DNA from: Elusimicrobiota bacterium
GTDB taxonomy: Bacteria > Elusimicrobiota > Elusimicrobia > Elusimicrobiales > UBA9959
Assembly (NCBI GenBank): GCA_012517285.1
Contig: JAAYVG010000023.1
Location: 16,925 to 80,924 of the forward strand
DNA length: 64,000 nucleotides
Direction: 5' to 3'
Positions within the stretch are counted from its first letter, which is position 1, and each line of letters begins with the position of its first letter. A model generated the notes under the pieces. The model did not search any database and had not been told where the DNA came from. It was given only the letters and a program-made list of their open reading frames with translations. The position numbers and the translations under genes were made by a program. Below, piece after piece: positions 3,458 to 63,940 of this stretch.

Positions 3458-4097
3458 TATGAAGATTTTTGAAAATTACTCTATATACGCTATAACCGAT
3501 GAAAAACATTCACTTGGAAGGGATAATGTTTTAGTTGCAAAAAAAATTCTTGAAAGCGGAGTTAAGATAATTCAATATAGGGTGAAATACTTGGACTTTG
3601 CTGATAAGTATCGTGAGGCAAAGGAGATAAGTAAGATTGCAAAAAAACACGGTGCTGTTTTCATTGTAAATGATCACCCTGATTTGGCTCTTATGGTTAA
3701 GGCTGATGGAGTTCATTTAGGACAGGATGATTATCCCGTTAAAGAGGTGCGAAAGCTTGTTGGTAAGGATTTTATAATAGGTGTATCAACACACAGTCCA
3801 GAGCAGTATATAAGGGCAACAAGGGATGGTGCAGATTATGCAGGGGTTGGCCCGCTTTTTGAAACACACACAAAGGATAATGTTATGTCTCCTGTTGGCT
3901 TAGAATATCTCAGATGGGTAGTTGGACATAAAAAGATACCATTTGTGGCAATAGGTGGAATAAAGACCTATAACCTTTCTGAAGTCATAAAGGCTGGAGC
4001 TAAATGTTTCTGTCTTGTAACAGAAATAACAGAATCAAAGGATATAAATAAGAAGATAAAAGAATTAAATAAGGGGGCACTAAAAAAGTCTATTTGA
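3441..4097 (+). CDS. thiE: Thiamine-phosphate synthase
   Basis: Motifs YAITD, FIVNDHPDLALMVKADGVHLGQDD and GVSTHS..AGVGPLF.T.TK. A strong SD (AAGGAGG) lies 6 nt before the ATG at 3441. Confidence 0.9.
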   Translation: MTKKDSMKIFENYSIYAITDEKHSLGRDNVLVAKKILESGVKIIQYRVKYLDFADKYREAKEISKIAKKHGAVFIVNDHPDLALMVKADGVHLGQDDYPVKEVRKLVGKDFIIGVSTHSPEQYIRATRDGADYAGVGPLFETHTKDNVMSPVGLEYLRWVVGHKKIPFVAIGGIKTYNLSEVIKAGAKCFCLVTEITESKDINKKIKELNKGALKKSI

Positions 4098-4108
4098 GCT
4101 ATAAATTA

Positions 4109-4234
4109 GCCAATTTTTTAAGCCTGCCGAAGCCGCTTCGGCGTAGGCAGGCGGGCGAGACGAGGAGCGAGGAGTGAGCATACCTGAATAAGGTCTGTAA
4201 ACGACGAGTGACGAAGTAGCAGCCAAAAATTGGC
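4109..4234. repeat. MITE-like GC-rich element. 10-11 bp terminal inverted repeats (GCCAATTTTT / AAAAATTGGC) bracket one copy of the CCTGCC..CGAAGC..GCTTCG..GGCAGG palindrome (4122-4152) plus about 70 bp of GC-rich sequence.
   Basis: The inverted repeats and the palindrome were read directly. It is a GC island in an AT-rich intergenic region after thiE. Confidence 0.6.
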
Positions 4235-4386
4235 AATTTAAAGCCAAAAGGTGGTAAAAACTACACGCCTTTTTAATATTAGAGATAAAAAACCTTGCAG
4301 TTTTGATATAAATTTTGAAACTTTTTATACAGTTTCTCATTTATAAAACCTCCACCGTTAGACTTTTTCAGTGCCCCCTAAAATAT

Positions 4387-5037
4387 ATGAAAACAAAAAT
4401 CTATAATGTTTTTGATAAAAATGCATTTGAATATGACAGCTGGTTTGATAAAAACAAGTATCTTTATCTAACTGAGCTTGAGGTAGTAAAAGAAGGCATT
4501 GGAAAGAAAAAATATAAAAATGCTATTGAGATAGGAGTTGGTACTGGAAGGTTTTCAGAACCATTCGGTATAAAAATAGGACTTGAGCCATCAGAGGATA
4601 TGGGAAAGTTAGCTGTGAAAAGAGGGATTGCTGTGGTTAAAGGATATGGCGAAAATATTCCATTTTTTGATGAAAGCTTTGATCTTGTCCTTATTGCCTT
4701 TACACTCTGTTTTGTTAAAGATCCTATAAAGGTTTTAACTGAGTCAAAAAGAATACTCAAAAAGAGAGGGAGAATTGTTATAGGAATAATAGACAAAGAC
4801 ACAGAGTTAGGAAGGATGTATCTTTTAAAGAAAAAAACAGATGTTTTTTATAGGGATGCTAAGTTTTATTCATCACTTTGGCTCATAGAGAAATTAAAAA
4901 AATTAAAATTTAAAAACATAACAACATACCAGACACTTTTTAAACCACAAAATTTAAAAAATTTAAGAAAATTAGACAGGATAGAAAAGGGTCATGGAAG
5001 AGGTGGATTTTGCGTTATAAGCGGCGAGAAAATTTAA
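4387..5037 (+). CDS. Class I SAM-dependent methyltransferase
   Basis: Motif I AIEIGVGTGRF, then the post-I and motif II-like FDLVLIAFTL. Start moved to MKTKIYNVFD because the longer ORF would begin inside the repeat element. Confidence 0.7.
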   Translation: MKTKIYNVFDKNAFEYDSWFDKNKYLYLTELEVVKEGIGKKKYKNAIEIGVGTGRFSEPFGIKIGLEPSEDMGKLAVKRGIAVVKGYGENIPFFDESFDLVLIAFTLCFVKDPIKVLTESKRILKKRGRIVIGIIDKDTELGRMYLLKKKTDVFYRDAKFYSSLWLIEKLKKLKFKNITTYQTLFKPQNLKNLRKLDRIEKGHGRGGFCVISGEKI

Positions 5038-5050
5038 TATAATAATTTTA

Positions 5051-6013
5051 ATGGAAACAAGTATAATATTTATAACAGCTGCTTTTTTTTCTTTTTTTAT
5101 TTCATATCTTCTTGCTTCATTTGAAATATATCCATTTTTCAGGTTTTTCTATGTTTTTGCATGGTATTCATACATCTTTTTTATTGATGGGATAAATTAT
5201 TTGATAAAGAATGATTCTTTAATAATATCACGGACAAAAGAATTTGTTTATATGCTTTTTGTATCATGCGGAATGTGGTTCTTTTTTGAGATATTTAATG
5301 TATCACTATCAAGCTGGGAATATAGTTTGGTTCCTTTTGATGTTACCGAGAGATATATTTTCTATCTACTTCTGTTTTCTTCAATTCTTCCAGCAATATT
5401 TGAAACGGAAGAACTGATAGAATCGTCAGGGTTGTTCAGAAAGGTCAGAATAAATATAAATTTAAAATTTAATGAAAAACATATTAGAATATACATAATC
5501 TTTGGAATATTTATAGCTCTTTTGTCTATCTCACTCCCGAGCATATTTTTTCCGCTTATATGGATATCGCTTGTTTTTATATTTGAGCCTCTTAATTACA
5601 AATTGGGCACAAGATCACTGATAAGAGAGAGTCTTAAAGGAAGGATTGAAAAACTTTTATCAATATCATTGGCAGGTGTCATCTACGGTATGCTTTGGGA
5701 TATATGGGGAATAAAGGCAGGAACAAAACTGATATACACACTTCCATACTTAAATCTTTTTAAGATATTCAATACCCCTGTTCTGTCATATATTTTTTTT
5801 ATACTTTTTGCTCTTGGTTCTTATTCAATGTATAATGCGTTCAGCTATTTTAAAAGGGGAATAAGCTGGGAGTATGACTCACAAACGCAGATAAGTGATA
5901 TTAAAAGATATAAATATTTTTATCCTATAGTTCTTATAATAATAGTAGTAGTATTCTTCATAGCAGTAAGGCTTATAGATAAATATACTGTAAGACTTTT
6001 TACTCTTATATAA
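5051..6013 (+). CDS. Polytopic integral membrane protein, function unknown
   Basis: 320 aa with about 8 hydrophobic segments. No recognisable motif. Confidence 0.55.
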   Translation: METSIIFITAAFFSFFISYLLASFEIYPFFRFFYVFAWYSYIFFIDGINYLIKNDSLIISRTKEFVYMLFVSCGMWFFFEIFNVSLSSWEYSLVPFDVTERYIFYLLLFSSILPAIFETEELIESSGLFRKVRININLKFNEKHIRIYIIFGIFIALLSISLPSIFFPLIWISLVFIFEPLNYKLGTRSLIRESLKGRIEKLLSISLAGVIYGMLWDIWGIKAGTKLIYTLPYLNLFKIFNTPVLSYIFFILFALGSYSMYNAFSYFKRGISWEYDSQTQISDIKRYKYFYPIVLIIIVVVFFIAVRLIDKYTVRLFTLI

Positions 6014-6620
6014 AAGTTATTTAGTTGTCTTGTTATCTGGTTATTTAATCATCAAGATGTAGACGGATTCATCGAGATGAAGACAGACAGATTTGTTATT
6101 TAGTTATTTTGGAAGAATGGGATAAAAATGAGAAGAAGTCTTAATCCATACACCGACTCATTGTTTTTTATATTCACACAATCAAACCAGTTATCATATA
6201 ACCATATTGCTTTTGTTATTTAATAGAACCTCTGTCCAACTTCGTAAGTTGAACATATAATTCCATTTACAAATTTTCGTCCAACTTCGTAGGTTGGACA
6301 GGTTATATTGTAACTACAGGCTAAGGTTAAGATTAAGATTGAGGTTAATAAGAAAACGACAAATCCCCATCAAAACAGTGATCAGTGGACAGTGATCAGA
6401 AAAGACAAAACAGTGATCAGTGCCTGCCTGCCCGCCTTTGTGATATGTCTGAGTTTGAAGTAGATAATGATTTAAGAGATGTAATTCATTATCATTACTA
6501 CAGGCAGGTAGGGACAGATGTCAGATTTTAAAGGAATTTCTTATTTATCTGATATCTATTTACATCCTGACTTAATCTGTTTTCATCTCGATGATTAAGT
6601 CTTCTCAAATTCCATACGAT
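6014..6620. repeat. Mosaic of dispersed intergenic 'word' repeats. Members: the AACCAGACAACCAGATAACC family, the CATCTCGATGATTAA family, the CAGTGATCAG family, TCCAAC-TTCGTAG-GTTGGA hairpins, and the split CCTGCCTGCC palindrome at 6421-6513.
   Basis: The same words recur in other intergenic regions of this window: 15535-15665, 25993-26190, 32780-33045 and 51469-51563. Confidence 0.8.
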
Positions 6621-6670
6621 CGTGTCAGAATGAAGGAAAACTATTTTTAAGTTTTATGTTTTATAATTTT

Positions 6671-6948
6671 GGGTCATTCGTAAATAATGTGGGATTTACC
6701 AATGAAAATAGTATGCAGAGAAAAATAAACAAAAAAAAGCATTGGTTACCCAAAACTCATATAATTTATTATTGAAAGATAAGTTATATAAAGGAGGATA
6801 ACCGATGCAAATATATAATATCAAAAAATTGTTAAATATTTCACAATATAAAATAACTCAGACTATTTTGAGCACTGACAAAGAAATTCATAAGATATCC
6901 CACACCAAAAGTAACCGCGTAGGTTACTTTTGGTTAGCAACAAAATAA
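6671..6948 (+). pseudogene. Possible ISL3-family IS remnant: candidate left inverted repeat (GGGTCATTCGTAAATAATGTGGG) plus a 47-codon N-terminal transposase fragment
   Basis: SD AAGGAGG precedes an ATG at 6805. The peptide MQIYNIKKLLNISQYKITQTILSTDKEIHK resembles the N-terminus of ISL3 transposases (..LL.I..yKit.v....). The frame runs into a hairpin repeat and stops at 6948. The family call rests on memory only. Confidence 0.3.
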
Positions 6949-7006
6949 TATTAAAATATAATCATAAATTTATCCAAACCCGAAGTAACCTACGCGGTTA
7001 CTTCGG
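6908..7006. repeat. Pair of perfect hairpins with mutually reverse-complementary loops: CCAAAAGTAAC-CGCGTAG-GTTACTTTTGG and CCGAAGTAAC-CTACGCG-GTTACTTCGG
   Basis: Read directly from the sequence. The two hairpins lie about 45 bp apart. Confidence 0.8.
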
Positions 7007-7128
7007 ATGTGATTCAAATAATTCTAAATTCTAAATTTTATAATATTCATCTACTTGGGACTAATGGCCTATTTACATATAGGTCTTATTGTATTTGATT
7101 TTAATCAATAAATGCTTAGAATATAGAT

Positions 7129-8136
7129 ATGAAAACTGCAAAATTAAAAGTGATCATAGCAGCTACACTTATAACAGCTACTTCATCGTTTTCTATTGCC
7201 GGGGTAAGTAAGGTAATATATGGTGATGACAACAGAAGGGATTATTATTCAATGCCAGAGGATATAAAAGCTATTGCAGATTCAGTAGTATCGCTCTGGG
7301 ATAAAACAAATGTTAGCTTTGATCCTTCATCAAACAGTTATATCCTTTCTACACAAAAATTTGGTGAAAGGCTTAATCTCTGTGATGATGAGCCTTTTAA
7401 GGATCAGACTATCGGAGCTTTTTGCTCTGGTTCCCTTGTTTCTGAGGATACAATCATAACGGCTGGTCATTGCATTACAAATGAGTCAAAGTGTGCATCA
7501 ACTTATTTTGTTTTTGGATATGCTGTAAATGATAAAAATAATCCTGATACCGCAGTTACAAATATTCCTGCATCAAATGTATATAAATGTTCCAAGATAT
7601 TAAAAAGAAATATTGGGCCGGAACCCACTCCTGATAATCCAAGTGGAACAGGGTTAGGTCCTGACTATGCAATAATAAAGCTTGATAGAAGGGTTGAGGG
7701 TAAAAAACCTCTTAGGATGAATTTGAATCAGAATCTATCAAAGGGAGATCCTGTTTTCGTAATAGGATATCCTGTAGGGCTTCCAGTAAAATTTGCTGAT
7801 GGATCTACTATTAGAGATCCATTGCCTGTTGGTTATTTCGTAGCAAATCTTGATACCTACGGTGGGAACTCTGGATCTCCTGTGTTTAACTCAAACACAA
7901 AGTTGATAGAGGGTATATTAGTAAGGGGTGATAATGATTTTATTCAGACTCCTGTTGGATGCAGCGTTTCTAATGTAGTTGACTCTGACGGAGGAAGAGG
8001 TGAGGATGTGACAAAGATATCGGTGCTTGCAAGCTATTTTAATTCTATTCAAAGTAATTCAGTAAGAAGCATATCAGTAAATGTGGAAATGCCAGAAGTT
8101 AGCAGATCAGCTGCTAATTTCAGTTTTGATAGATAA
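7129..8136 (+). CDS. Secreted trypsin-fold (S1, V8/glutamyl-endopeptidase-like) serine protease
   Basis: Signal peptide, then catalytic His in TAGHC, Asp in DYAIIKLD and Ser in GGNSGSPVF. Confidence 0.8.
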   Translation: MKTAKLKVIIAATLITATSSFSIAGVSKVIYGDDNRRDYYSMPEDIKAIADSVVSLWDKTNVSFDPSSNSYILSTQKFGERLNLCDDEPFKDQTIGAFCSGSLVSEDTIITAGHCITNESKCASTYFVFGYAVNDKNNPDTAVTNIPASNVYKCSKILKRNIGPEPTPDNPSGTGLGPDYAIIKLDRRVEGKKPLRMNLNQNLSKGDPVFVIGYPVGLPVKFADGSTIRDPLPVGYFVANLDTYGGNSGSPVFNSNTKLIEGILVRGDNDFIQTPVGCSVSNVVDSDGGRGEDVTKISVLASYFNSIQSNSVRSISVNVEMPEVSRSAANFSFDR

Positions 8137-8153
8137 AAAGATTACCTGGGCTT

Positions 8154-8194
8154 AACCCCTTTTCGTTCTGAGCAAACGAAAAGGGGTTTTTTTG
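8154..8194 (+). terminator. Rho-independent terminator
   Basis: AACCCCTTTTCGTT / AACGAAAAGGGGTT stem followed by a T-run. Confidence 0.8.
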
Positions 8195-8236
8195 TTGGTA
8201 TTAAAAATAATATAAAATATATTATCAGGATGATTT

Positions 8237-8899
8237 ATGAGCAAAGATTTATTAAAAAAAGTTAAAACATTGAAGGGTTTTTCAAAGGCGGACATAAAAG
8301 CCCTTAAATCTCTTGGAAAATTAAAGAAATTTAATAAAGGTGATATTATTTTTAACAAAAATGACTCAGGAAAAAAGTTTTATATATTAAAAAAAGGAGA
8401 GGTGCAAATATTTACTGAGTTAGGAAATAAAGATAAGATAATATCAGTGCTTAGTGAGAATGATTTTTTTGGAGAACTAGCCCTTTTAGGAATAGGATAT
8501 AGAACAGCTTCTGCAGTTGCTATAAAGGATTCAGAGGTGTATGTAATTTCAATGAAAGACTTTGAATCGCTTCTTTTGAATAATAAAGAATTTACATTGA
8601 AGTTGCTTTACATAATGGCAGAGAGATTGAGAAAGACTGATGAGGAAATAGAAAATTTGTTGTTTTATAATATATTCGGAAGAGTTATAAAGTTTTTGTA
8701 TGAAAGTTGTAGAAAAAATAATAATACAGAGTTGAGTATAACACAGGACGATATAGCAAAGAATTTAGGAACAACAAGAATCCCTGTTAACAGGGTGCTT
8801 CAGAGATTGAAAAACAAAGGTATTATAACACTATCAAGAGGAAAAATAATAATAGATGAGAAAAAGCTTAACTCAATAATGGAGAGGTTTAAATGTTAA
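8237..8899 (+). CDS. Crp/Fnr-family transcriptional regulator (cNMP-binding domain + C-terminal HTH)
   Basis: FFGELALL and RTASAVA cNMP-binding signatures. C-terminal HTH ITQDDIAKNLGTTRIPVNRVL. Confidence 0.85.
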   Translation: MSKDLLKKVKTLKGFSKADIKALKSLGKLKKFNKGDIIFNKNDSGKKFYILKKGEVQIFTELGNKDKIISVLSENDFFGELALLGIGYRTASAVAIKDSEVYVISMKDFESLLLNNKEFTLKLLYIMAERLRKTDEEIENLLFYNIFGRVIKFLYESCRKNNNTELSITQDDIAKNLGTTRIPVNRVLQRLKNKGIITLSRGKIIIDEKKLNSIMERFKC

Positions 8900-10116
8900 C
8901 AACTGTTAGAGGATTTAAGGATATACTCTATCCTCAATCAGAACTTTTTACAGCGATTGAGATTGCAGCAAGAGAAATTTTTAAGATATATAATTATAAG
9001 GAGATAAGGCTTCCAACGGTTGAATACTATGAGTTATTTGTAAAATCAACAGGCGAGACAACTGATATAGTTGAAAAGGAAATGTATAAGTTTGAGGATC
9101 AATCAAAAAGAATGCTTGCTCTAAGACCTGAGGGCACCCCTGGCATTGTAAGGGCTTATATAAATTCAAATCTTAACCTTAAAGGGGAAAACTCCAAATT
9201 CTTTTATATAGGAAATATGTTCAGAGCAGAACGGCCGCAGGCAGGAAGATACAGAGAGTTTGAACAGATAGGAGCAGAGTATTTGGGCAATGCTTCACCG
9301 TATGCTGATGCAGAAGTCATCATGATGCTGGACAGCTTTTTAAAAAAGTTAGGAATAAAATCATACACACCAGAAATAAATTCTATAGGATGCACAGAAT
9401 GTAGAAAGAAATACAGAGGGGTTTTAATAAATCATTTAAAGAATATTGATCTGTGTGATGACTGCAAAAACAGGATTGGAAGAAATCCCTTAAGAGTTCT
9501 TGACTGTAAAACAGACCGAGATAAGCTGAAGGATATACCTCATATAGAGCTCTGCACAGATTGTAGGACACACTATGAATCAGTAAAAAATATACTTACA
9601 ACAAACAATTTAAAATTTAAAGAGAATTATTTTCTTGTAAGAGGGCTTGATTATTATACAAGGACAGTTTTTGAGTTTAAAACAGATCAGTTGGGTTCAC
9701 AGGATGCAGTGGCGTCAGGTGGAAGATATGACACCCTTGTCAAATCTATGGGAGGACCTGATTCTCCAAGCGTTGGCTGGGCAGCTGGAGTAGAAAGAAT
9801 AGCCATGCTTGTTGAAAAGAACGATACACTCATAAAAGAAAAAGATCTTTTTTTTGTTGTTTCTATGGATAAGGCCTATTCAGAGTACTGTTTAAAAATA
9901 TTAACTGAACTGAGAAAGAATAACATAAGGGCAGATTTTTCAAATTTTTCAGTTAGCATTAAATCACAGCTAAGAAGTGCAAATTCAAATGGTGCTAAAT
10001 ATGCATTAATAATTGGTGATGATGAATATAAAACAAACACAATCACACTGAAAAATCTTTCAAATGGTGAGCAAAAAAAGACTAACTTGAATGAAATAAT
10101 ACAGATTATGCACTGA
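8893..10116 (+). CDS. hisS: Histidyl-tRNA synthetase
   Basis: GFKD start, LRPEGT, and class II motif 2 FRAERPQAGRYREFEQIG. GGRYD and an anticodon-binding C-terminal domain. Confidence 0.9.
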   Translation: MLTTVRGFKDILYPQSELFTAIEIAAREIFKIYNYKEIRLPTVEYYELFVKSTGETTDIVEKEMYKFEDQSKRMLALRPEGTPGIVRAYINSNLNLKGENSKFFYIGNMFRAERPQAGRYREFEQIGAEYLGNASPYADAEVIMMLDSFLKKLGIKSYTPEINSIGCTECRKKYRGVLINHLKNIDLCDDCKNRIGRNPLRVLDCKTDRDKLKDIPHIELCTDCRTHYESVKNILTTNNLKFKENYFLVRGLDYYTRTVFEFKTDQLGSQDAVASGGRYDTLVKSMGGPDSPSVGWAAGVERIAMLVEKNDTLIKEKDLFFVVSMDKAYSEYCLKILTELRKNNIRADFSNFSVSIKSQLRSANSNGAKYALIIGDDEYKTNTITLKNLSNGEQKKTNLNEIIQIMH

Positions 10117-10117
10117 C

Positions 10118-10162
10118 CCTGCCTGCGCCGAAGCGGCTTCGGCAGGCAGGCACTGGTCACTG
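10118..10162. repeat. GC-rich palindrome CCTGCCTGCGCCGAAGCGGCTTCGGCAGGCAGG plus a CACTGGTCACTG word, in the 64-bp hisS-aspS spacer
   Basis: Read directly. One of 6 copies in the window. Confidence 0.85.
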
Positions 10163-10180
10163 TTTTAGCGGAGGTTTTAT

Positions 10181-11929
10181 ATGATGAGAACACATACATG
10201 TGGAGAGCTTTCAGACAAAAACGTTGGAGAGAAGGTTACGCTTTGTGGATGGTTAGATTCAAAAAGAAATCATGGTGGAGTTCTATTCCTTATATTAAGA
10301 GATTTATATGGTATAACTCAGGTTGTAGTTGAACCAAAAAATAATTTTTTTTCAGTAGCTGAAAATTTGAGGAGTGAGTATGTAGTAAAGGTTGATGGCG
10401 AAGTAAGGAAAAGGCCCGAAGGAAATGAGAACAGGAATCTGCCAACAGGGGGGATAGAAGTTTTAATGGATAAAATTGAAATATTAAACACATCAGAAGA
10501 ACTTCCATTTGCTATTGCTGAGTATATAAATGTAAGCGAAGAAACAAGACTCAAATACAGATACCTTGATATAAGAAGAGAAACTCTTAAGAAGAATCTT
10601 GTGATCAGAAGCAATATAGCACAGGTTGTTAGAAATTATCTGGTAAAAAATAAATTCTATGAGATAGAAACACCAATACTAACAAAATCAACACCTGAAG
10701 GAGCAAGAGATTTTCTTGTTCCATCAAGGATCAACCCGGGAAAGTTTTATGCACTTCCACAGTCTCCTCAGATGTTTAAACAAATTCTTATGATAAGTGG
10801 TATGGATAGGTATTTTCAGTTAGCAAGAAACTTCAGGGATGAGGACCTCAGAAGTGATAGACAGTTAGAACATACACAGATAGATATGGAGATGAGTTTT
10901 GTTGATGAAAAGGATGTGGCGGTTGTTGTAGAAGGGATGATGAAAGAGATATTCTCAAGCATTGGAGAAACAATTGAGACACCATTCATTGATATGGAAT
11001 ATGATGAAGCTATGGAAAAATACGGTACTGACAAACCGGACATAAGATTTGGATATGAAATAAAAGATATAACTGAAATATTTAAAAATACTGATTTTAA
11101 AATATTTAGACAGATAATAGATTCTGGTGGAGTTATAAAGGCAATAAATGCAAAAAATGTTCATAATTACTCAAGGAGTGAGATAGATAAACTCACAGAA
11201 ACACTTAAGTTAAATGGAGCAAAGGGGCTTGTATGGTTAAAGATGAAGGATGGCAAGATTGAATCATCAATTATTAAATTTTTAAAGGATGATGATATAA
11301 AAAATCTTAATGAAAAACTTAACATAACTGATGGTGATACAGTGTTTATAGCAAGCGATAACAGAAAAGATATATTAAAATATATAGGAATTCTTAGGAA
11401 TGAGATAATAAAAAATGATAAAAATCCTTCAAAGAAATGGGCTTTTTTATGGATAAGACATTTTCCACTTCTTGAATGGAAAGCAGATGAAAATAGATAT
11501 GATGCCACGCATAATCCGTTTACTGCACCTATGCCTGAAGAGCTTTATAAGCTTGATATAAAGGAAGAGCTTGAAAACATAAAATCATGTCAGTATGATC
11601 TTGTGTTAAATGGTGTGGAATTAGGCTCTGGTTCTGTAAGAAATCATAGGAAAGAGATTCAGGAAAAAATTTTTAGGCTTATGGGATATGATGACAGACA
11701 GATACAGGAAAAATTTTCTATGATAATGAATGCACTTTCCTATGGTGCGCCGCCACATGGTGGTATAGGAATAGGTCTTGATAGACTCGTAGCTATTATA
11801 TGTGGCTATGAGTCAATAAGAGAGGTTATTGCATTTCCTAAGACTACAAGCGGACTCTGCCCTATGACTGATGCCCCATCAGCAGTTGATGAAAAACAGC
11901 TTAAAGAGCTTCATATAAAGGATATATAA
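10181..11929 (+). CDS. aspS: Aspartyl-tRNA synthetase (bacterial type)
   Basis: MRTHTCGEL start, OB-fold N-terminus, [17 protein letters not shown] motif 2, [10 protein letters not shown] motif 3. Confidence 0.93.
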
Positions 11930-15412: not shown

Positions 15413-15428
15413 TTAGATAGTTAAATTG

Positions 15429-15470
15429 AAAACAAGGGCTTTTCTTTTAAAAGAAAAGCCCTTGTTTTCG
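15429..15470 (+). terminator. Rho-independent terminator (potentially bidirectional between convergent genes)
   Basis: AAAACAAGGGCTTTTCTTTT / AAAAGAAAAGCCCTTGTTTT perfect hairpin. Confidence 0.8.
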
Positions 15471-15534
15471 TAGCTTGATATTATTGTGTATTTTTTTTAT
15501 TAAGAAGTAACCTCGTAGACTACTTTTCTTCTTC

Positions 15535-15665
15535 CTAAACAACTAAATAACCAGACAACCAGATAACCAATTTGCTTTTCTGTCTTCTGTTTTCTGTCCC
15601 TGCCTACGCCGAATCGGCTTCGGCAGGCAGGATCTGAGTTCTGACATCTGTTTACATCTCGATGA
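15535..15665. repeat. Mosaic intergenic repeat block: the AACCAGACAACCAGATAACC word, the CTGTCTTCTGTTTTCTGTC word, a palindrome copy at 15598-15631, and the CATCTCGATGATTA word
   Basis: Read directly. The same words, in a different order and orientation, occur at 6014-6620. Confidence 0.85.
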
Positions 15666-20344: not shown

Positions 20345-20869
20345 TTATCTTAATTCAAGTTTTTGAAGTCTTGTCTCATGATCCTTAATCTTCTTATCAT
20401 GCTCCATTATTGTTTCAGCCCTTAATATATCCTTAGTTCTATAATCTCTGATCTCGTTAATAAAACTATCCATAATATTTAATATTCGGTTTATATCATC
20501 CTTTGTTGCCATATTCTCTTCGATCTTTGTAATTCTTATATCCAGCTTAACGATTTCACCTACAACTCCAGAGATATCTTTTTTTAATTCAGTCCTTACA
20601 TTGGAGATGTCTTGTTTTAATTCAGTTCTTACTGCTTTTAATTCATCCCTTACGTTGGCAATATCTTGTTTTAATTCAGTCCTTACGTTGGCAATATCTT
20701 GTTTTAATTCAGTCCTTACGTTGGCAATATCTTTTTTTAATTCAGTCCTTACATTGGAAATATCTTGTTTTAATTCAGTCCTTACATTGGAAATATCACC
20801 TTTTAATTCAGTTTTCACTTGATTAACATCTGCCTTTGTAGCAGGTAAAGATTTATTACTCTTATCCAT
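20345..20869 (-). CDS. Coiled-coil protein with about 8 tandem 11-residue repeats (VRTELKQDI[S/A]N); DUF1640-like
   Basis: 33-bp in-frame DNA tandem repeat at about 20570-20820. The C-terminal region is heptad-like. Confidence 0.7.
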   Translation of the reverse strand: MDKSNKSLPATKADVNQVKTELKGDISNVRTELKQDISNVRTELKKDIANVRTELKQDIANVRTELKQDIANVRDELKAVRTELKQDISNVRTELKKDISGVVGEIVKLDIRITKIEENMATKDDINRILNIMDSFINEIRDYRTKDILRAETIMEHDKKIKDHETRLQKLELR

Positions 20870-25977: not shown

Positions 25978-25992
25978 AAAAAACCTCCATTT

Positions 25993-26190
25993 AAATAGTG
26001 GTCAGTGGTTAGTGATCAGTGCCTGCCTGCCGAAGATATATCAGCAAAGTGGCGAATAGCCACAGTCGTTTTGCTGATATGTTTATCGTAGGCAGGAACA
26101 GTAAAACCAGATAACAGAGAACAGAGGTCAGAAGACAGAAAACAGAACTCAGAATTTAAAATAACTCATCCTATCTGACCTCTGACTTCT
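25993..26190. repeat. Mosaic intergenic repeat block: the GTGGTCAGTGGTTAGTGATCAG word, the split palindrome at 26021-26096 with a nested hairpin insert, and CAGAAGACAGAAAACAG words forming a further hairpin
   Basis: Read directly. Confidence 0.85.
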
Positions 26191-26238
26191 CTGTGTCCAC
26201 ATTCGACCATGATACGCATTAATTATACAAATTCTCCA

Positions 26239-32779: not shown

Positions 32780-33045
32780 ACCCGAAGTAACCAGACAACC
32801 AGATAACCAAACAACCAATTAGTCCGTCTTCATCTGATGTTTTATCCGTTTTCATCAGTGTATTTAATCCGTTTACATCCTGATGATTACATCTTGACTT
32901 AATCCGTATTCATCTTGATGTTTAGATAACCAGACAACCAAATAACTAAATAACTAATTTGCTTTTCTGTCTTCTGCCCTCTGTTTTCTGACTTCTGTTT
33001 CTATTAAACAACCAGACAACCAAATAACTAAATAACTAGTTTATG
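32780..33045. repeat. Mosaic intergenic repeat block: three AACCAGACAACCA[A/G]ATAAC words, 4-5 degenerate ~22-bp tandem units TTAATCCGTNTNCATCNTGATG (32821-32923), and CTGTCTTCTG words
   Basis: Read directly. Confidence 0.85.
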
Positions 33046-51468: not shown

Positions 51469-51563
51469 AAACAGATGTCAGAAGTCAGATGACAGACAAA
51501 TAGGGAATTTCCTTAAATTCTGTTTCGTGCTTTCTGTCTTCTGTCATCTGTTTTCTGACTTCT
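51469..51563. repeat. Long imperfect hairpin built from CAGAAGTCAG/ACAGATGACAGA words (arms 51469-51500 and 51531-51563)
   Basis: Read directly. It lies downstream of pgpA and could act as a terminator or stabiliser. Confidence 0.7.
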
Positions 51564-51661
51564 AACCATGGTCGGCTGATGAGGATAACAATCGTTAATA
51601 AAACCTTCATCGTTAAAGTTTTTCAGTGAACCTTACTCATTAATTTGGTATAATTTTAATT

Positions 51662-61598: not shown

Positions 61599-61733
61599 AT
61601 GAATATTAAGAAAAAGTTTATAATAAAATTGATTGTATTAATAGCGATGTTTCTCATTTATCAGCTATGGACAGTTAAAATGATAAAAGAAATAAAAGAT
61701 TTTATGCGATCTTTAGAGAGTTTTCTAATATAG
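61599..61733 (+). CDS. Mini membrane protein B1 (44 aa): MNIKKKFIIKLIVLIAMFLIYQLWTVKMIKEIKDFMRSLESFLI
   Basis: Its N-terminal 35 aa are identical to B3 and about 60% identical to B2 despite DNA divergence. Confidence 0.55.
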   Translation: MNIKKKFIIKLIVLIAMFLIYQLWTVKMIKEIKDFMRSLESFLI

Positions 61734-61778
61734 GAATGATACTGAAGAGGTGGCTGACGAGGCTGTTAACAGATAAAA

Positions 61779-61916
61779 ATGACAGAAAAAAAGAAAAAGA
61801 TACTATTAAGGATAACAGACTGGATACTCAATATTTTAATCATATATTATTTAATAATGAATTTAGTAAGTGGTATTTTCGCTTTAATATGGGCAATCAA
61901 TGAAGGCAAATTATGA
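61779..61916 (+). CDS. Mini membrane protein A2 (45 aa), a diverged paralogue of A1/A3
   Basis: The first 25 aa match A1 apart from K11R. The tail diverges but stays hydrophobic. It is preceded by an orphan ..EEVADEAVNR-stop stub (61742-61776). Confidence 0.55.
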   Translation: MTEKKKKILLRITDWILNILIIYYLIMNLVSGIFALIWAINEGKL

Positions 61917-62101
61917 ATATTAGGAAAAAGTTTATTATAAAGATAATAGTTTTTTTGATAATGTTTACAGTTTACCAGTTATGGAGCATTAAAGTAATAG
62001 ATAAAATAAATGATATGATAGAATACGGTCGATGCCAGCCTTGGTGGATAATAGGAAATTTAAAATACTGTAATAAAAAACCATGGTGGCAATTTTGGTG
62101 A
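61913..62101 (+). CDS. Mini protein B2 (62 aa) with a conserved B-type N-terminus and a Trp/Cys-rich tail (EYGRCQPWWIIGNLKYCNKKPWWQFW)
   Basis: ATGA overlap with A2. ORF present in the supplied track. Confidence 0.6.
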   Translation: MNIRKKFIIKIIVFLIMFTVYQLWSIKVIDKINDMIEYGRCQPWWIIGNLKYCNKKPWWQFW

Positions 62102-62107
62102 TGTTAT

Positions 62108-63298
62108 ATGAAAAAAATATTTAATATGATGTTGTTTTTTTTGATTCTTATTTCACCCATAGATATATATGCAAACACAGAAAACGATTTAATTGATTTA
62201 TACAATAGTAGTTTTAACAATGACAATATTATAATTCCAACTCCAGATTTTTCGATTGATGATGATAAAAGTTCTATCCTTGTATATTTACTTGGGAGAT
62301 ACAAAAAATTAAATGAATCTGAGGAAAGCAAGATTTCCGTTTCATTGAACATACTAAGCCAGACAATAACTGGAAACATCCTATGCTCAAAATTAGGGGT
62401 TCAGGATTGTACACGAAGGGAATTAAGCAAGATAAATTTGGAATTTAGAAAAGGTGATTTGCTTTCTTCATTATTTGGAGAGCCAACATTTTATGCTTTT
62501 GTCCCACCACCATCTCAAGTTAACAAGAGAAAGATTATATGCATAGATGAGGGTTTTTTAGATACTTCAGATGTATCTGTCACTGCCCATTTTATTGCTC
62601 ATGAGATTTCACATGTATATGATAATAAAATATTTGGTGAATACTACCATTTTGAATTATATGAAGGGAAAATCAAGCCAAGAATGAATCAATTAAGAAT
62701 GCTATTTTCAGAGTATAAAGCTGTATTCATTCAAATGTCTATATATAATGAGCTTGTAACAAAAAAGTATATTAAACGCAACAGAAACGATGCAATAGAT
62801 TTTTTATTATCAATCTATAGATGGAAAGAAACAGGAAATATAAAAGAGATAAACCTTAACTTTACAAATAATGTCGGGAATAAAACATACACAGCAAAGG
62901 ATTATATGAACATATGTAAAAAAGTTAAGAATGGAAGAAGTTGTATATATGAATTAACAAAAATTTTTTGTGGTATAAACCTATCAAACATGAATCTATC
63001 CAATGATGAAGCTCAGAGAAATTATATCTATATAGATTTTGTGATCAAAAATGTAAAAGAATATGAAAGCAAATACAAAAATTTTTTTCCTCCAACACAG
63101 CCAATAGAACCAGAGAACAACAACACTGATAATAATGATAACAACCATCCACACCCACCGTCACCAATTCAGCCGGGACCAGTTCCTCAACCACCTGATT
63201 ACGATCCACCATGGGATGACCATAACGGAAACCCATCAACCCCGCCAATACACATGAGATATAAATCATTGATTGATTTCATTGAAGATAATATATAA
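62108..63298 (+). CDS. Cassette protein X3: 396-aa secreted protein with an HExxH motif (putative Zn metallopeptidase) and a Pro-rich C-terminal region
   Basis: Signal peptide MKKIFNMMLFFLILISPIDIYA. FIAHEISHVYD at 62600-62614. C-terminal region PPTQPIEPE..HPHPPSPIQPGPVPQPPDYDPPWDD. Confidence 0.65.
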   Translation: MKKIFNMMLFFLILISPIDIYANTENDLIDLYNSSFNNDNIIIPTPDFSIDDDKSSILVYLLGRYKKLNESEESKISVSLNILSQTITGNILCSKLGVQDCTRRELSKINLEFRKGDLLSSLFGEPTFYAFVPPPSQVNKRKIICIDEGFLDTSDVSVTAHFIAHEISHVYDNKIFGEYYHFELYEGKIKPRMNQLRMLFSEYKAVFIQMSIYNELVTKKYIKRNRNDAIDFLLSIYRWKETGNIKEINLNFTNNVGNKTYTAKDYMNICKKVKNGRSCIYELTKIFCGINLSNMNLSNDEAQRNYIYIDFVIKNVKEYESKYKNFFPPTQPIEPENNNTDNNDNNHPHPPSPIQPGPVPQPPDYDPPWDDHNGNPSTPPIHMRYKSLIDFIEDNI

Positions 63299-63367
63299 AA
63301 TTAGTTTAGAGAATAAAATGATCGACATAGTTATTCATCTGGCTGACGAGGCAGTTAACAGATAAAA

Positions 63368-63798: not shown

Positions 63799-63916
63799 AT
63801 AGGATCACTGAAAAAGCCTAACGGAGAATAAGGGCGATAATTCGGTTGGTGGATTTTTAAAACTTCATATGTAAAAATCAAAAAAATCTTAACTTCTTAC
63901 TTTTTCAGTCGCATCT

Positions 63917-63940
63917 CCTGCCTGCCGAAGCGGCTTCGCC
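63917..63940. repeat. Truncated copy of the CCTGCCTGCCGAAGCGGCTTCG palindrome (right arm degenerate)
   Basis: Read directly. Confidence 0.7.

What the first reader, a model, noticed from the sequence alone, without database searches (positions are those of the whole stretch)
10118..10150. Dispersed GC-rich palindrome CCTGCCTGC(C/G)CCGAAGCGGCTTCGGCAGGCAGG: six copies in 64 kb, all intergenic
The six copies are at 4122-4152, 6421-6513 (split), 10118-10150, 15598-15631, 26021-26096 (split) and 63917-63940 (truncated).

Each would form a GC hairpin of about 14 bp with a GCGG/CCGC-type loop, in a genome that is otherwise very AT-rich. None is followed by a T-run, so they are not classical terminators.

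One copy sits inside the 64-bp hisS-aspS spacer of an apparent operon, which fits a REP/BIME-like role in mRNA stabilisation, processing or protein binding. Several copies are flanked by the word CAGTGATCAG(TG), giving the composite CAGTGATCAGTGCCTGCCTGCC.

Spurious ORFs read through these repeats, for example 4080-4340(-) and 9876-10199(-).
Basis: seen in the sequence. Interest (0 to 1): 0.6.

Follow-up and report, generated by a model that had tools for sequence, protein, structure and literature searches.

The report
Tiny mobile GC-rich palindrome family
A 33-base GC-rich hairpin sequence scattered between genes of an AT-rich uncultured Elusimicrobia bacterium behaves like a miniature selfish DNA repeat, and the very same 33 bases turn up, inserted cleanly, in bacteria of at least seven other phyla, which ordinary repeats of this kind do not do.

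Summary
All six sites exist as described: three intact 33-bp palindromes, two copies with a 50-65-nt insert at the apex, and one decayed copy. About zero are expected by chance. The host is an AT-rich Elusimicrobiales MAG.

The palindrome ("PAL") behaves as a REP-like selfish repeat, not a conserved operon element.
- It is absent from the same spacers in relatives (hisS-aspS spacer 0-19 bp).
- It differs between ~99%-identical strains by tandem duplication, loss of a CAGG unit, heptamer-array expansion and presence/absence.
- It is nested in one MITE copy but not in two paralogous copies.
- It recurs on other contigs of the same population, roughly one per 10 kb.

A RAYT-like Y1 transposase is present in a same-species MAG. 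It is flanked by a different hairpin family (GCGTA loop) that shares the motif GCGTAGG with PAL.

The identical 33-mer, including its 2-nt bulge, also occurs in at least seven other phyla, with nothing else shared in the flanks. There it is inserted without target duplication into hairpin loops and heptamer arrays, and twice in frame in a Parcubacteria tsaD gene. It was not found in Rfam, the plasmid or phage collections, or the searchable literature.

The parts
10117..10150 (-). Intact PAL copy in the 64-bp hisS-aspS spacer. It abuts the hisS stop codon (CACTGA|CC) and is followed by CACTGGTCACTG heptamer words.
   Evidence: polarity from nhmmer (40.6 bits on the minus strand, 18.1 on the plus strand)
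15598..15631 (-). Intact PAL copy between convergent genes (trypsin-like + / HD -), downstream of the true bidirectional terminator at 15428-15469. It carries the GTAG variant and loop base A/T.
   Evidence: same site in strains L001/L094/L095 with loop G
4122..4152 (+). PAL copy one CAGG unit short, GTAG variant, nested inside a MITE.
   Evidence: absent from two paralogous MITE copies
26022..26096 (+). 'PAL-long': PAL arms (CCTGCCTGCCGAAG ... TCGTAGGCAGG) with a ~50-nt hairpin inserted at the apex. It is a sub-family of its own.
   Evidence: -49.5 kcal/mol, z -8; 1 copy here, 2 tandem copies in L092/L093, none in L094; further copies at L201:11570 and L202:8994/9069
6423..6513 (.). Shell copy: CCTGCCTGCC...CAGGCAGG arms around a 65-nt AT-rich insert. 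It is part of a 295-bp strain-specific composite (6305-6599).
   Evidence: same sequence in L137
63917..63940 (.). Decayed copy (left arm and apex only), directly next to a 115-bp MITE remnant (63802-63916). Conserved in all strains.
6366..6422 (+). CAGTGAT-type heptamer array abutting the 6423 copy.
   Evidence: period 7
15539..15597 (+). Octamer (AACCAGAC) and heptamer (TTCTGTC) arrays abutting the 15598 copy.
25997..26021 (+). AGTGGTC heptamer array to the left of PAL-long. It is absent, together with PAL-long, from strain L094.
26097..26155 (+). AACAGAA heptamer array to the right of PAL-long.
10151..10169 (+). CACTGGTCACTG heptamer words to the right of the hisS-aspS copy. Strain L001 has an extra 64 bp here.
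4074..4386 (.). 313-bp MITE (TIR GGGGCACTRAAAAAGTC) that hosts the 4122 copy. Absent in strain L001.
6904..7008 (.). Inverted pair of 'REP2' hairpins (13-bp stems, GCGTA loop). This is the family that flanks the RAYT-like gene in the same species, and it shares GCGTAGG with PAL.
   Evidence: RAYT flanks
6237..6299 (+). Two direct REP2-type hairpins (CAACT-TCGTA-AGTTG / GTCCAACT-TCGTA-GGTTGGAC).
15505..15525 (+). REP2-type hairpin AAGTAACCTCGTAGACTACTT, 73 nt upstream of the 15598 PAL copy.

Best explanation
PAL is a non-coding, non-autonomous miniature mobile palindrome of the REP class. It is a discrete 33-bp unit: 8-bp outer arms CCTGCCTG/CAGGCAGG, a 2-nt CG bulge, and an inner hairpin CCGAAG-CNG-CTTCGG.

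Shown:
- The unit is inserted precisely and without target-site duplication.
- It lands in places prone to being single-stranded or to slipping: loops of other hairpins, other small repeats, and heptamer tandem arrays.
- Once inserted it evolves fast by local tandem duplication, gain or loss of CAGG units, and insertion of further hairpins at its own apex.

Inferred: it moves as a single-stranded hairpin, cut and rejoined by a trans-acting HUH Y1 (RAYT-like) transposase. One such enzyme is encoded in the same species. The variant form of PAL shares the motif GCGTAGG with the hairpins that flank that gene.

Effects on neighbouring genes look like side-effects rather than the reason the element exists. 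Examples are the new hisS stop codon, the splitting of the thiE/methyltransferase pair, and a possible stabilisation of mRNA 3' ends.
For: Real, polar family:
- Far more copies than chance.

Presence/absence at orthologous or paralogous sites:
- None in 20-kb syntenic regions of relatives at 79% and 74% AspS identity.
- The 93% relative has another hairpin at the same spot.
- PAL-long occurs 0, 1 or 2 times in the PriA-POT spacer of strains that encode the identical POT protein.
- PAL is present in one MITE copy and absent in two others.

Precise insertion without duplication:
- Parcubacteria tsaD: GATTC|CGAACAAAT (empty, L225) against AATTC[33 nt]CAAACAAAT (filled, L027).
- Lentisphaerae REP: GGACGGCTCGG|CGAGCCGTCC, empty in L009 and others, filled with a PAL-type palindrome in L011/L022.

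Nesting in both directions:
- PAL sits in loops of host hairpins in Kiritimatiellae, Lentisphaerae and Saccharibacteria.
- Inserts sit at the PAL apex at window 26022 and 6423 and at L011:3990-4056.

Spread beyond the window:
- Further copies lie on 105-kb and 140-kb contigs of the same metagenome population.

Candidate enzyme:
- L202:1385-2020 scores 31.5 bits on Pfam Y1_Tnp, above the cut-off of 23. Its best NCBIfam match is REP_Tyr_transpos. It has the HUH motif PNHFHIL and the motif YIHLNPV.
- A 97%-identical copy lies in GCA_018000795.1, the MAG that also holds contigs ~99% identical to the window.
- The gene is flanked by an inverted pair of GCGTA-loop hairpins also present in the window.
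- A PAL copy lies 370 bp from the gene's 3' end in L202.
Against: - The RAYT-like gene is flanked by REP2 hairpins, not PAL, so cognacy with PAL is unproven.
- Homologues of that enzyme fall off with phylogeny: 56% identity within Elusimicrobia and 47% in Omnitrophota. PAL, in contrast, is identical across phyla, so a single co-transferred enzyme is not evident.
- GTAG is only a polymorphic variant inside the 3' arm, not the unpaired 5' tag of classical REPs.
- No conserved target sequence is seen across phyla. CAGTG| on the 5' side is frequent only in this species, and part of that count is biased by the search pattern.
- A 33-nt single-stranded intermediate is smaller than any element shown to transpose.
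- No clean empty/filled pair was found for the plain 33-bp form at a chromosomal site within the Elusimicrobia species itself; only the MITE-nested case exists.
- Only about 110 kb of this genome was examined.
Confidence: 0.55

Rival explanations
1. PAL is a host-selected structural element, the BIME-like function proposed by the first reader. As an RNA hairpin it would protect or process polycistronic mRNA (for example hisS-aspS). As DNA it would bind a host protein such as gyrase, IHF or a regulator. On this view its copies are kept because they are useful.
For: - Very stable hairpin on either strand.
- Copies lie between unidirectional or convergent genes and downstream of stop codons.
- Stems are more conserved than the loop base, which is G, T or A.
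- In this species' copies (window and same-population contigs) the G/T polymorphism keeps G-C or G.T pairing on one strand.
- REPs elsewhere are reported to stabilise mRNA (PMC3733652, abstract).
Against: - Sites are not conserved in relatives and vary between 99% strains.
- Orientation relative to transcription is mixed: the 10118 and 26022 copies present opposite element strands to the mRNA than 15598 does to the HD transcript.
- One copy sits inside a MITE and others lie inside a protein-coding gene in another phylum.
- No T-run follows any copy and none is called terminator-like.
- A selected site would not be expected to be identical in seven phyla while absent from congeners.
Confidence: 0.15
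2. PAL spreads without any dedicated transposase. Copies would be seeded by template switching, gene conversion or short-patch recombination between ectopic copies, helped by microhomology in the flanking heptamer arrays. Arrival in a new lineage would occur by uptake of very short, nuclease-resistant DNA. On this view the RAYT-like gene serves only the REP2 hairpins.
For: - Much of the strain variation is slippage-like: a tandem duplication of a 109-bp unit, gain or loss of a CAGG unit, and array expansion.
- The two tsaD copies in Parcubacteria share their flanks AAATTC|PAL|CAAACAAATCC.
- PAL often sits in period-7 arrays in two phyla.
- No shared carrier sequence surrounds PAL in 16 taxa.
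- PAL is absent from the plasmid, phage and viral collections.
- The enzyme phylogeny does not mirror PAL identity.
Against: - Insertions into unrelated hosts are exact to the base and lack flanking homology to other copies: REP loops in Lentisphaerae, a MITE in Elusimicrobia, and hairpin loops in Saccharibacteria and Kiritimatiellae.
- The conserved asymmetric 2-nt bulge and the element's polarity suggest recognition by a protein.
Confidence: 0.22
3. The copies are intrinsic transcription terminators or attenuators.
For: GC-rich hairpins located after stop codons.
Against: - No T-run follows any copy and none is called by the terminator scan. Bona fide terminators with T-runs exist nearby at 8154-8188 and 15428-15469.
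- One copy lies between two genes that are tightly linked or overlapping in relatives.
Confidence: 0.03
4. Chance similarity, an assembly or adapter artefact, or mis-binned contigs.
For: All genomes concerned are metagenome assemblies.
Against: - Zero copies are expected by chance.
- The same sites appear in independent assemblies from JGI, NCBI, ENA and Logan.
- Copies carry point variants.
- Flanks in other phyla differ in GC content (0.33-0.65) and share no other sequence.
- Several host contigs are 50-240 kb long.
Confidence: 0.01

Closest known systems
REP / BIME elements and their RAYT transposases (E. coli, Pseudomonas REPINs, GTAG-tagged REPs; PMC3733652, PMC3116915)
   Same: - A 20-40-bp imperfect palindrome, dispersed and mostly extragenic, lying between unidirectional or convergent genes.
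- Embedded in mosaics with other short motifs.
- Occasionally found inside genes.
- A Y1 HUH transposase of RAYT type is present in the genome and is flanked by small hairpins.
- A G(T/C)AG motif is present.
   Different: - GTAG is not an unpaired 5' tag. It is a polymorphic variant inside the 3' arm.
- The RAYT-like gene is flanked by another hairpin family.
- Copies are single hairpins, not REP doublets.
- The identical sequence is shared by many phyla, whereas REP families are species- or genus-specific and RAYTs are described as vertically inherited.
Small dispersed repeats (SDR) and heptameric STRR arrays of heterocystous cyanobacteria (Elhai et al. 2008 Genome Res 18:1484). The reference is as cited in PMC3116915; the paper itself was not held, so its details are from my own knowledge.
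   Same: - Very small (21-27 nt there, 33 nt here) hairpin-forming units.
- Near-identical between genomes.
- Inserted without target duplication, and nested in other repeats and hairpins.
- Co-occur with tandem heptamer arrays.
- No enzyme is known for them.
   Different: - No sequence relationship is known.
- SDRs are confined to cyanobacteria, whereas PAL crosses phyla.
- The association of SDRs with heptamers could not be re-checked here.
Rickettsia palindromic elements (RPE), from own knowledge
   Same: Palindromic repeats that can insert in frame into protein-coding genes and are tolerated. PAL has no stop codon in any of the six frames and occurs twice inside Parcubacteria tsaD.
   Different: RPEs are 100-150 bp and restricted to one genus. 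In the Elusimicrobia window no PAL copy is in coding sequence.
MITEs (TIR plus target-site duplication), such as the 313-bp element at 4074-4386 in this window
   Same: Non-autonomous, strain-polymorphic, palindromic overall.
   Different: PAL makes no target-site duplication and is ten times smaller. The MITE in this genome duplicates 7 bp (TAAATAG).
IS200/IS605-derived palindrome-associated elements (PATEs) and single-strand 'peel and paste' transposition (PMC6006769 for the HUH superfamily)
   Same: No target duplication, dependence on an imperfect hairpin with a bulge, polarity of the element, and in this species a recurrent word (CAGTG) directly 5' of the element.
   Different: No conserved target word across phyla. 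There are no separate left and right ends with different hairpins, and no full-length IS with PAL ends was found.

Membership tests
REP (repetitive extragenic palindrome) | Short (20-40 bp) imperfect palindrome able to form a stem-loop | tested here: met
   33 bp: 7+7 bp stems, a 2-nt bulge and a 3-5-nt loop
REP (repetitive extragenic palindrome) | Many dispersed copies, predominantly extragenic | tested here: met
   6 sites in 64 kb, all intergenic. At least 9 more lie on other contigs of the same population. A whole-genome count is not possible with the data held.
REP (GTAG super-family, PMC3733652) | Conserved unpaired GTAG (or CGTC) tetranucleotide at one end of the stem-loop | tested here: not met
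   The position reads G(C/T)AG, lies inside the 3' arm and is paired (G-C or G.T). The commonest form across phyla is GCAG.
REP/RAYT system | A RAYT gene in the genome, flanked by its cognate REPs | tested here: inconclusive
   A RAYT-like Y1 transposase is present in a same-species MAG: Pfam Y1_Tnp 31.5 bits against a cut-off of 23, NCBIfam REP_Tyr_transpos 58.9 bits against a cut-off of 80. It is flanked by GCGTA-loop hairpins, not PAL. The nearest PAL is 370 bp from its 3' end.
REP/RAYT system | Family restricted to a species or genus, inherited vertically with its RAYT | tested here: not met
   The identical 33-mer occurs in at least 7 other phyla. RAYT-like homologues are only 47-56% identical outside the species.
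BIME (mosaic of REPs and other motifs) | REPs combined with other conserved short motifs in intergenic clusters | tested here: met
   PAL, heptamer/octamer arrays, a 22-mer (CATCTCGATGATTA words), REP2 hairpins and MITEs are combined at 6013-7129, 15470-15665 and 25978-26238.
MITE | Terminal inverted repeats plus target-site duplication | tested here: not met
   Three filled/empty comparisons show no duplication.
Intrinsic terminator | GC-rich hairpin followed by a T-run | tested here: not met
   No T-run; not called in the scan.
CRISPR repeat | Regularly spaced direct repeats with unique spacers | tested here: not met
   Copies are single or at most two in tandem, 2-38 kb apart.
Known RNA family (Rfam 15) | Match to a curated covariance model | tested here: not met
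   No hit on any PAL copy at the gathering threshold (whole window) or at E<=5 over 4000-10250.
IS200/IS605-type single-strand element (PATE) | Insertion 3' of a fixed 4-5-nt target, no duplication, hairpin ends | tested here: inconclusive
   No duplication (met). CAGTG lies directly 5' of the element in 4 of 7 copies found without that word in the query. There is no common word in other phyla.
Cyanobacterial SDR | 21-27-nt hairpin units, nested insertion without duplication, near-identity between genomes | not testable with these tools
No sequence comparison was made.

The most novel reading that the evidence does not exclude
PAL may be an ultra-small (33-bp) mobile palindrome that crosses phylum boundaries as a unit. 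It is found with identical sequence and the same asymmetric bulge in Elusimicrobiota, Lentisphaerota, Kiritimatiellota, Verrucomicrobiota, Bacteroidota, Nitrospirota, Omnitrophota, Parcubacteria and Saccharibacteria, with no carrier sequence around it. It inserts without duplication into hairpin loops, into heptamer arrays and in frame into an essential gene. This would be a pan-bacterial counterpart of the cyanobacterial SDR/STRR phenomenon. Its propagation machinery is unknown: either a promiscuous HUH enzyme, or a mechanism independent of any dedicated transposase. It may also be linked to the genesis of heptamer tandem arrays.
Probability: 0.3. Interest if true: 0.85.

Novelty: new variant of a known kind. 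Interest (0 to 1): 0.66.

Why it matters
REP-type palindromes are usually treated as lineage-bound passengers of a vertically inherited RAYT. Here a 33-bp unit is identical in distant phyla, sits in otherwise unrelated DNA, and shows exact empty and filled sites. That raises two questions: how can so small a sequence cross lineages, and what copies it?

It also gives a tractable test case. One candidate enzyme and two hairpin substrates occur in the same species.

There are practical consequences too.
- These elements create spurious ORFs, move stop codons (hisS, thiE), split translationally coupled genes and probably break assemblies.
- They put 11-residue inserts into essential CPR proteins.
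- They are a strain-level marker in metagenomes.

Tried and rejected
- Rfam at gathering and E-value thresholds found nothing on PAL. Only sub-threshold miRNA/WsnRNA46-like hits fell on the long REP2 hairpin at 6895-7022.
- The exact 30-33-mer is absent from IMG/VR viral contigs, PLSDB plasmids and INPHARED phages.
- A literature search by sequence strings found no paper. Elhai et al. 2008 could not be opened under three identifiers.
- The 9237 match is hisS coding sequence, not a copy.
- The lineage-specific metagenome pattern GAYCAGTGCCTGCCTGCC returned mostly chance hits in GC-rich contigs.
- Exact-protein look-ups for hisS, the two last ORFs of the window and P0001 found nothing. The window's own assembly accession therefore stays unknown.
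- I asked whether IS91-like fragments that carry PAL at the same codon in a Verrucomicrobiota and a Lentisphaerae contig are the vehicle. They share only about 50-100 nt around PAL, so I did not pursue it.
- I looked for an orientation bias relative to transcription or replication. There are too few copies and they are mixed, so no conclusion.
- I looked for pairs of PAL ends 0.5-3 kb apart that could flank a transposase (a full-length element). None turned up in the loci held.

Full report
**Observation.** The window is about 33% GC. At 10118-10150 it reads CCTGCCTGCGCCGAAGCGGCTTCGGCAGGCAGG, directly after the hisS stop codon (ORF 8893-10116) and 31 nt before the aspS start at 10181.
- Pattern searches give 3 hits against 0.00 expected for the 17-mer, and 10 against 0.2 for CCTGCCTRC.
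- One 9-mer hit, at 9237, is hisS coding sequence and not a copy.
- A profile of population copies finds the same set and nothing more. Each intact copy scores 37-43 bits on one strand and 13-18 on the other.
- That polarity comes from a 2-nt CG bulge on one side of the stem. The fold is 7 bp + bulge + 7 bp with a 3-5-nt loop.
- No copy has a T-run or is called terminator-like, while real terminators lie nearby.

**Host and relatives.** AspS is 100% identical to a protein named 'MAG: Elusimicrobia bacterium'. Near-identical strains (about 97-99% DNA identity) were recovered from JGI 3300050336, 3300028903, 3300050581 and 3300044580, NCBI GCA_018000795.1, ENA and Logan. Relatives at 93%, 79% and 74% AspS identity were also recovered.

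**PAL is lineage-specific and unstable.**
- The syntenic ~20 kb of the 79% and 74% relatives contains no PAL motif at all.
- The hisS-aspS spacer differs step by step. The genes overlap in the 74% relative, and the spacer is 19 bp in the 79% relative.
- In the 93% relative the spacer is 97 bp, with CACTGAT-type heptamers around an AT-rich hairpin and no PAL.
- It is 64 bp in the window. In strain L001 it is 141 bp, where PAL has lost one CAGG unit and the CTGATCACTG words are expanded.
- In the PriA-POT spacer the 78-nt 'PAL-long' is present once in the window and twice in tandem in two strains. In a fourth strain it is absent together with its left heptamers, and that strain carries a MITE there instead.
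- The window-versus-L001 comparison shows that almost all indels in 22 kb fall in these repeat mosaics.

**Context.**
- PAL copies abut tandem arrays of period 7: CAGTGAT, TTCTGTC and AACAGAA types. Such arrays also occur without PAL at 32789-33038 and 51469-51566.
- The 4122 copy lies in a 313-bp MITE (TIR GGGGCACTGAAAAAGTC). The MITE is missing in strain L001, where thiE and the methyltransferase gene overlap by 4 bp.
- Two other copies of that MITE in strain L094 lack PAL at the corresponding position, which is a filled/empty comparison within the species.
- PAL-long recurs at unrelated loci of the same population (L201:11570 and L202:8994/9069), so it is a sub-family.
- Five contigs or contig segments from metagenome Ga0302250 carry further short copies at L191:2183, L193:2680, L201:6075 and L202:982 and 6958. 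The same metagenome holds a strain that encodes the identical POT protein (its contig L137 is 98.9% identical to window DNA).
- Counting only copies not used to find those contigs gives about one per 8-10 kb, like the window's 6 per 64 kb. This is an extrapolation, not a census.

**Candidate enzyme.**
- A phmmer search with E. coli RayT over all ORFs of the loci held found two hits.
- The first is a Lentisphaerae protein that passes the NCBIfam RAYT cut-off and is flanked by classical GGTAGGG-REPs.
- The second is L202:1385-2020, 211 aa, with HUH motif PNHFHIL and YIHLNPV. It scores 31.5 bits on Pfam Y1_Tnp (cut-off 23) and 58.9 on NCBIfam REP_Tyr_transpos (cut-off 80).
- A 97% identical copy lies on JAGNJC010000067.1 of GCA_018000795.1, the MAG that also holds contigs matching the window.
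- In both records the 5' side of the gene carries an inverted pair of hairpins, CCAACC-GCGTA-GGTTGG.
- This 'REP2' family has variable, compensating stems and a conserved (G/T)CGTA loop. It occurs in the window at 6237-6299, 6904-7008 and 15505-15525.
- PAL in its GTAG form reads ...CGGCGTAGGCAGG and REP2 reads ...CCGCGTAGGTT. Both can be written stem-N-[optional hairpin]-CGTA-stem'. That resemblance is my inference, not a test.
- Homologues of the enzyme decline with phylogeny: 54-56% in other Elusimicrobia and about 47% in Omnitrophota and Endomicrobia.

**The unexpected part.**
Twenty-six matches in about 16 genomes carry the whole palindrome, usually base for base, including the CG bulge.
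- The hosts are as follows. A Lentisphaerae MAG has at least 11 contigs with it. Two Kiritimatiellae, a Victivallales, a Verrucomicrobiota, a 'PVC' MAG and a Cytophagales also carry it. So do a Nitrospirales, an Omnitrophota, an unclassified bacterium, a Parcubacteria (two copies) and a Saccharibacteria. Close variants occur in a Roseivirgaceae and a Bacteroidia MAG.
- With PAL masked, 1 kb of flank on each side shares nothing between taxa. The only exceptions are two related Kiritimatiellae and one 36-nt match. Flank GC ranges from 0.33 to 0.65.
- In these genomes PAL sits in the loop or at the apex of a larger inverted repeat. Examples are CCTGGGG..PAL..CCCCAGG and CTGCCGTCT|PAL|TCGGCAG.
- In Lentisphaerae it sits between GTAG-REPs. 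There a related palindrome with the same outer arms fills the exact centre of a REP that is empty elsewhere: GGACGGCTCGG|CGAGCCGTCC.
- PAL itself hosts inserts at L011:3990-4056.
- In Parcubacteria GW2011_GWA2_47_21 two copies lie in frame inside tsaD. The gene encodes 461 aa, with the peptide SLPAPNRLRQAG twice, each within period-7 arrays.
- Orthologues at 60-74% identity lack the peptide. At the DNA level the empty site GATTC|CGAACAAAT becomes AATTC[33 nt]CAAACAAAT, with no duplication.
- PAL has no stop codon in any frame.
- PAL was not found in viral contigs, plasmids, phages, Rfam or the searchable literature.

**Interpretation.**
- Shown: a discrete 33-bp polar palindrome; lineage-specific gain; strain-level turnover; exact insertion without duplication; nesting; presence in many phyla without a carrier; a RAYT-like gene in the species.
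- Inferred: movement as a single-stranded hairpin by a HUH Y1 enzyme; kinship of PAL and REP2 as substrates; a preference for loops and slippage-prone arrays because these are single-stranded.
- The functional reading (mRNA stabiliser or protein-binding site) is not excluded for individual copies. It does not explain the distribution.
- An enzyme-independent route (template switching, or gene conversion seeded by array microhomology) explains the slippage-type variation and the missing carrier. It fits poorly with base-exact insertions into unrelated hosts and with the conserved bulge.

**Comparison with known systems.**
- PAL works like a REP and lives in a BIME-like mosaic, but it fails two defining tests of the GTAG-REP/RAYT system. 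It has no unpaired GTAG tag, and it is not lineage-restricted (PMC3733652, PMC3116915). Cognacy with the RAYT-like gene is unproven.
- It is not a MITE, terminator, CRISPR repeat or Rfam family.
- Its behaviour is closest to the cyanobacterial small dispersed repeats embedded among STRR heptamers (Elhai et al. 2008, known to me but not readable here). In its tolerance inside coding sequence it resembles Rickettsia palindromic elements.

**Verdict.** The REP/BIME interpretation is partly right, as a selfish mosaic repeat rather than an operon element. The finding is a new variant of a known kind, and the cross-phylum identity is an open and testable puzzle.

Noticed in passing
window 4074-4386 and 63802-63916; L094 (two sites): A MITE family with TIR GGG(G/T)(C/T)CACTGAAAAA(G/C)TC and a 7-bp target duplication (TAAATAG / CTAAATA). 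It is polymorphic between ~99% strains. In the window it splits thiE and a methyltransferase gene that overlap by 4 bp in strain L001, and it supplies the new thiE stop codon.
   Followed up: partly
window 6237-6299, 6904-7008, 15505-15525; L202:2027-2126; L227:3049-3140: A second small hairpin family ('REP2') with variable compensating stems and a conserved (G/T)CGTA pentaloop. An inverted pair flanks the RAYT-like Y1 transposase gene found in the same species.
   Followed up: partly
window 6015-6044, 32789-33038, 51469-51566: Tandem arrays of heptamers and octamers (TTCTGTC, ACAGATG, AACCAGAC, AACTAAAT) and a 22-mer (TTAATCCGTTTTCATCTGATGTAT) fill intergenic regions even where no PAL is present. 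At 51469-51566 two inverted arrays flank an AT-rich hairpin.
   Followed up: partly
window 6670-7006 = L201:7741-8076: A 337-bp segment is 98.5% identical to a segment on another contig of the same population, so it is a dispersed repeat that includes the REP2 pair.
   Followed up: no
window 61719-63339: A 1.6-kb segment with ORF 62108-63298 (396 aa, no Pfam match) is absent from four other strains, which go straight on to a YggS-like gene. It is partly a diverged duplication of neighbouring sequence.
   Followed up: partly
window 20636-20812 (ORF 20345-20869, minus strand): An in-frame 33-nt tandem repeat (5.4 copies, 93% matches) in an apolipoprotein-like ORF. The product length differs between strains (145, 156, 160, 163 and 174 aa).
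   Followed up: no
window 15428-15469: A perfect 42-nt palindrome (GAAAACAAGGGCTTTTCTTTTAAAAGAAAAGCCCTTGTTTTC) between convergent genes. It looks like a bidirectional intrinsic terminator and is conserved in all strains.
   Followed up: no
L027:1909-3294 (Parcubacteria GW2011_GWA2_47_21) and L225: tsaD carries two in-frame inserts made of period-7 arrays plus PAL, and at site 1 a second 24-nt palindrome CGCCTGCCAATCGGCGGGCAGGCA. CPR orthologues vary from 382 to 518 aa at exactly these two positions.
   Followed up: partly
L030:7300-7510, L074 (rc 2600-2930), L071:854-930: Fragments of IS91-like transposase genes (FSCKGRWFCPSCH motif) end at, or are read through, a PAL copy translated as LPAPKRLRQAG. 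Two of them, from Verrucomicrobiota and Lentisphaerae, have it at the same codon.
   Followed up: partly
L071:1480-1800 (PVC group MAG): Three tandem ~92-nt units each contain a related palindrome with the same outer arms but another core (CCTGCCTGCGTGCCGCACGCAGACAGG). This suggests a super-family defined by the CCTGCCTGCG/CAGGCAGG shell.
   Followed up: no
window 10105-10116: The last codons and the TGA stop of hisS (…IMH*) lie in a CACTGA heptamer word of the inserted mosaic. Relatives have different C-termini, so the insertion replaced the native end of the gene.
   Followed up: partly
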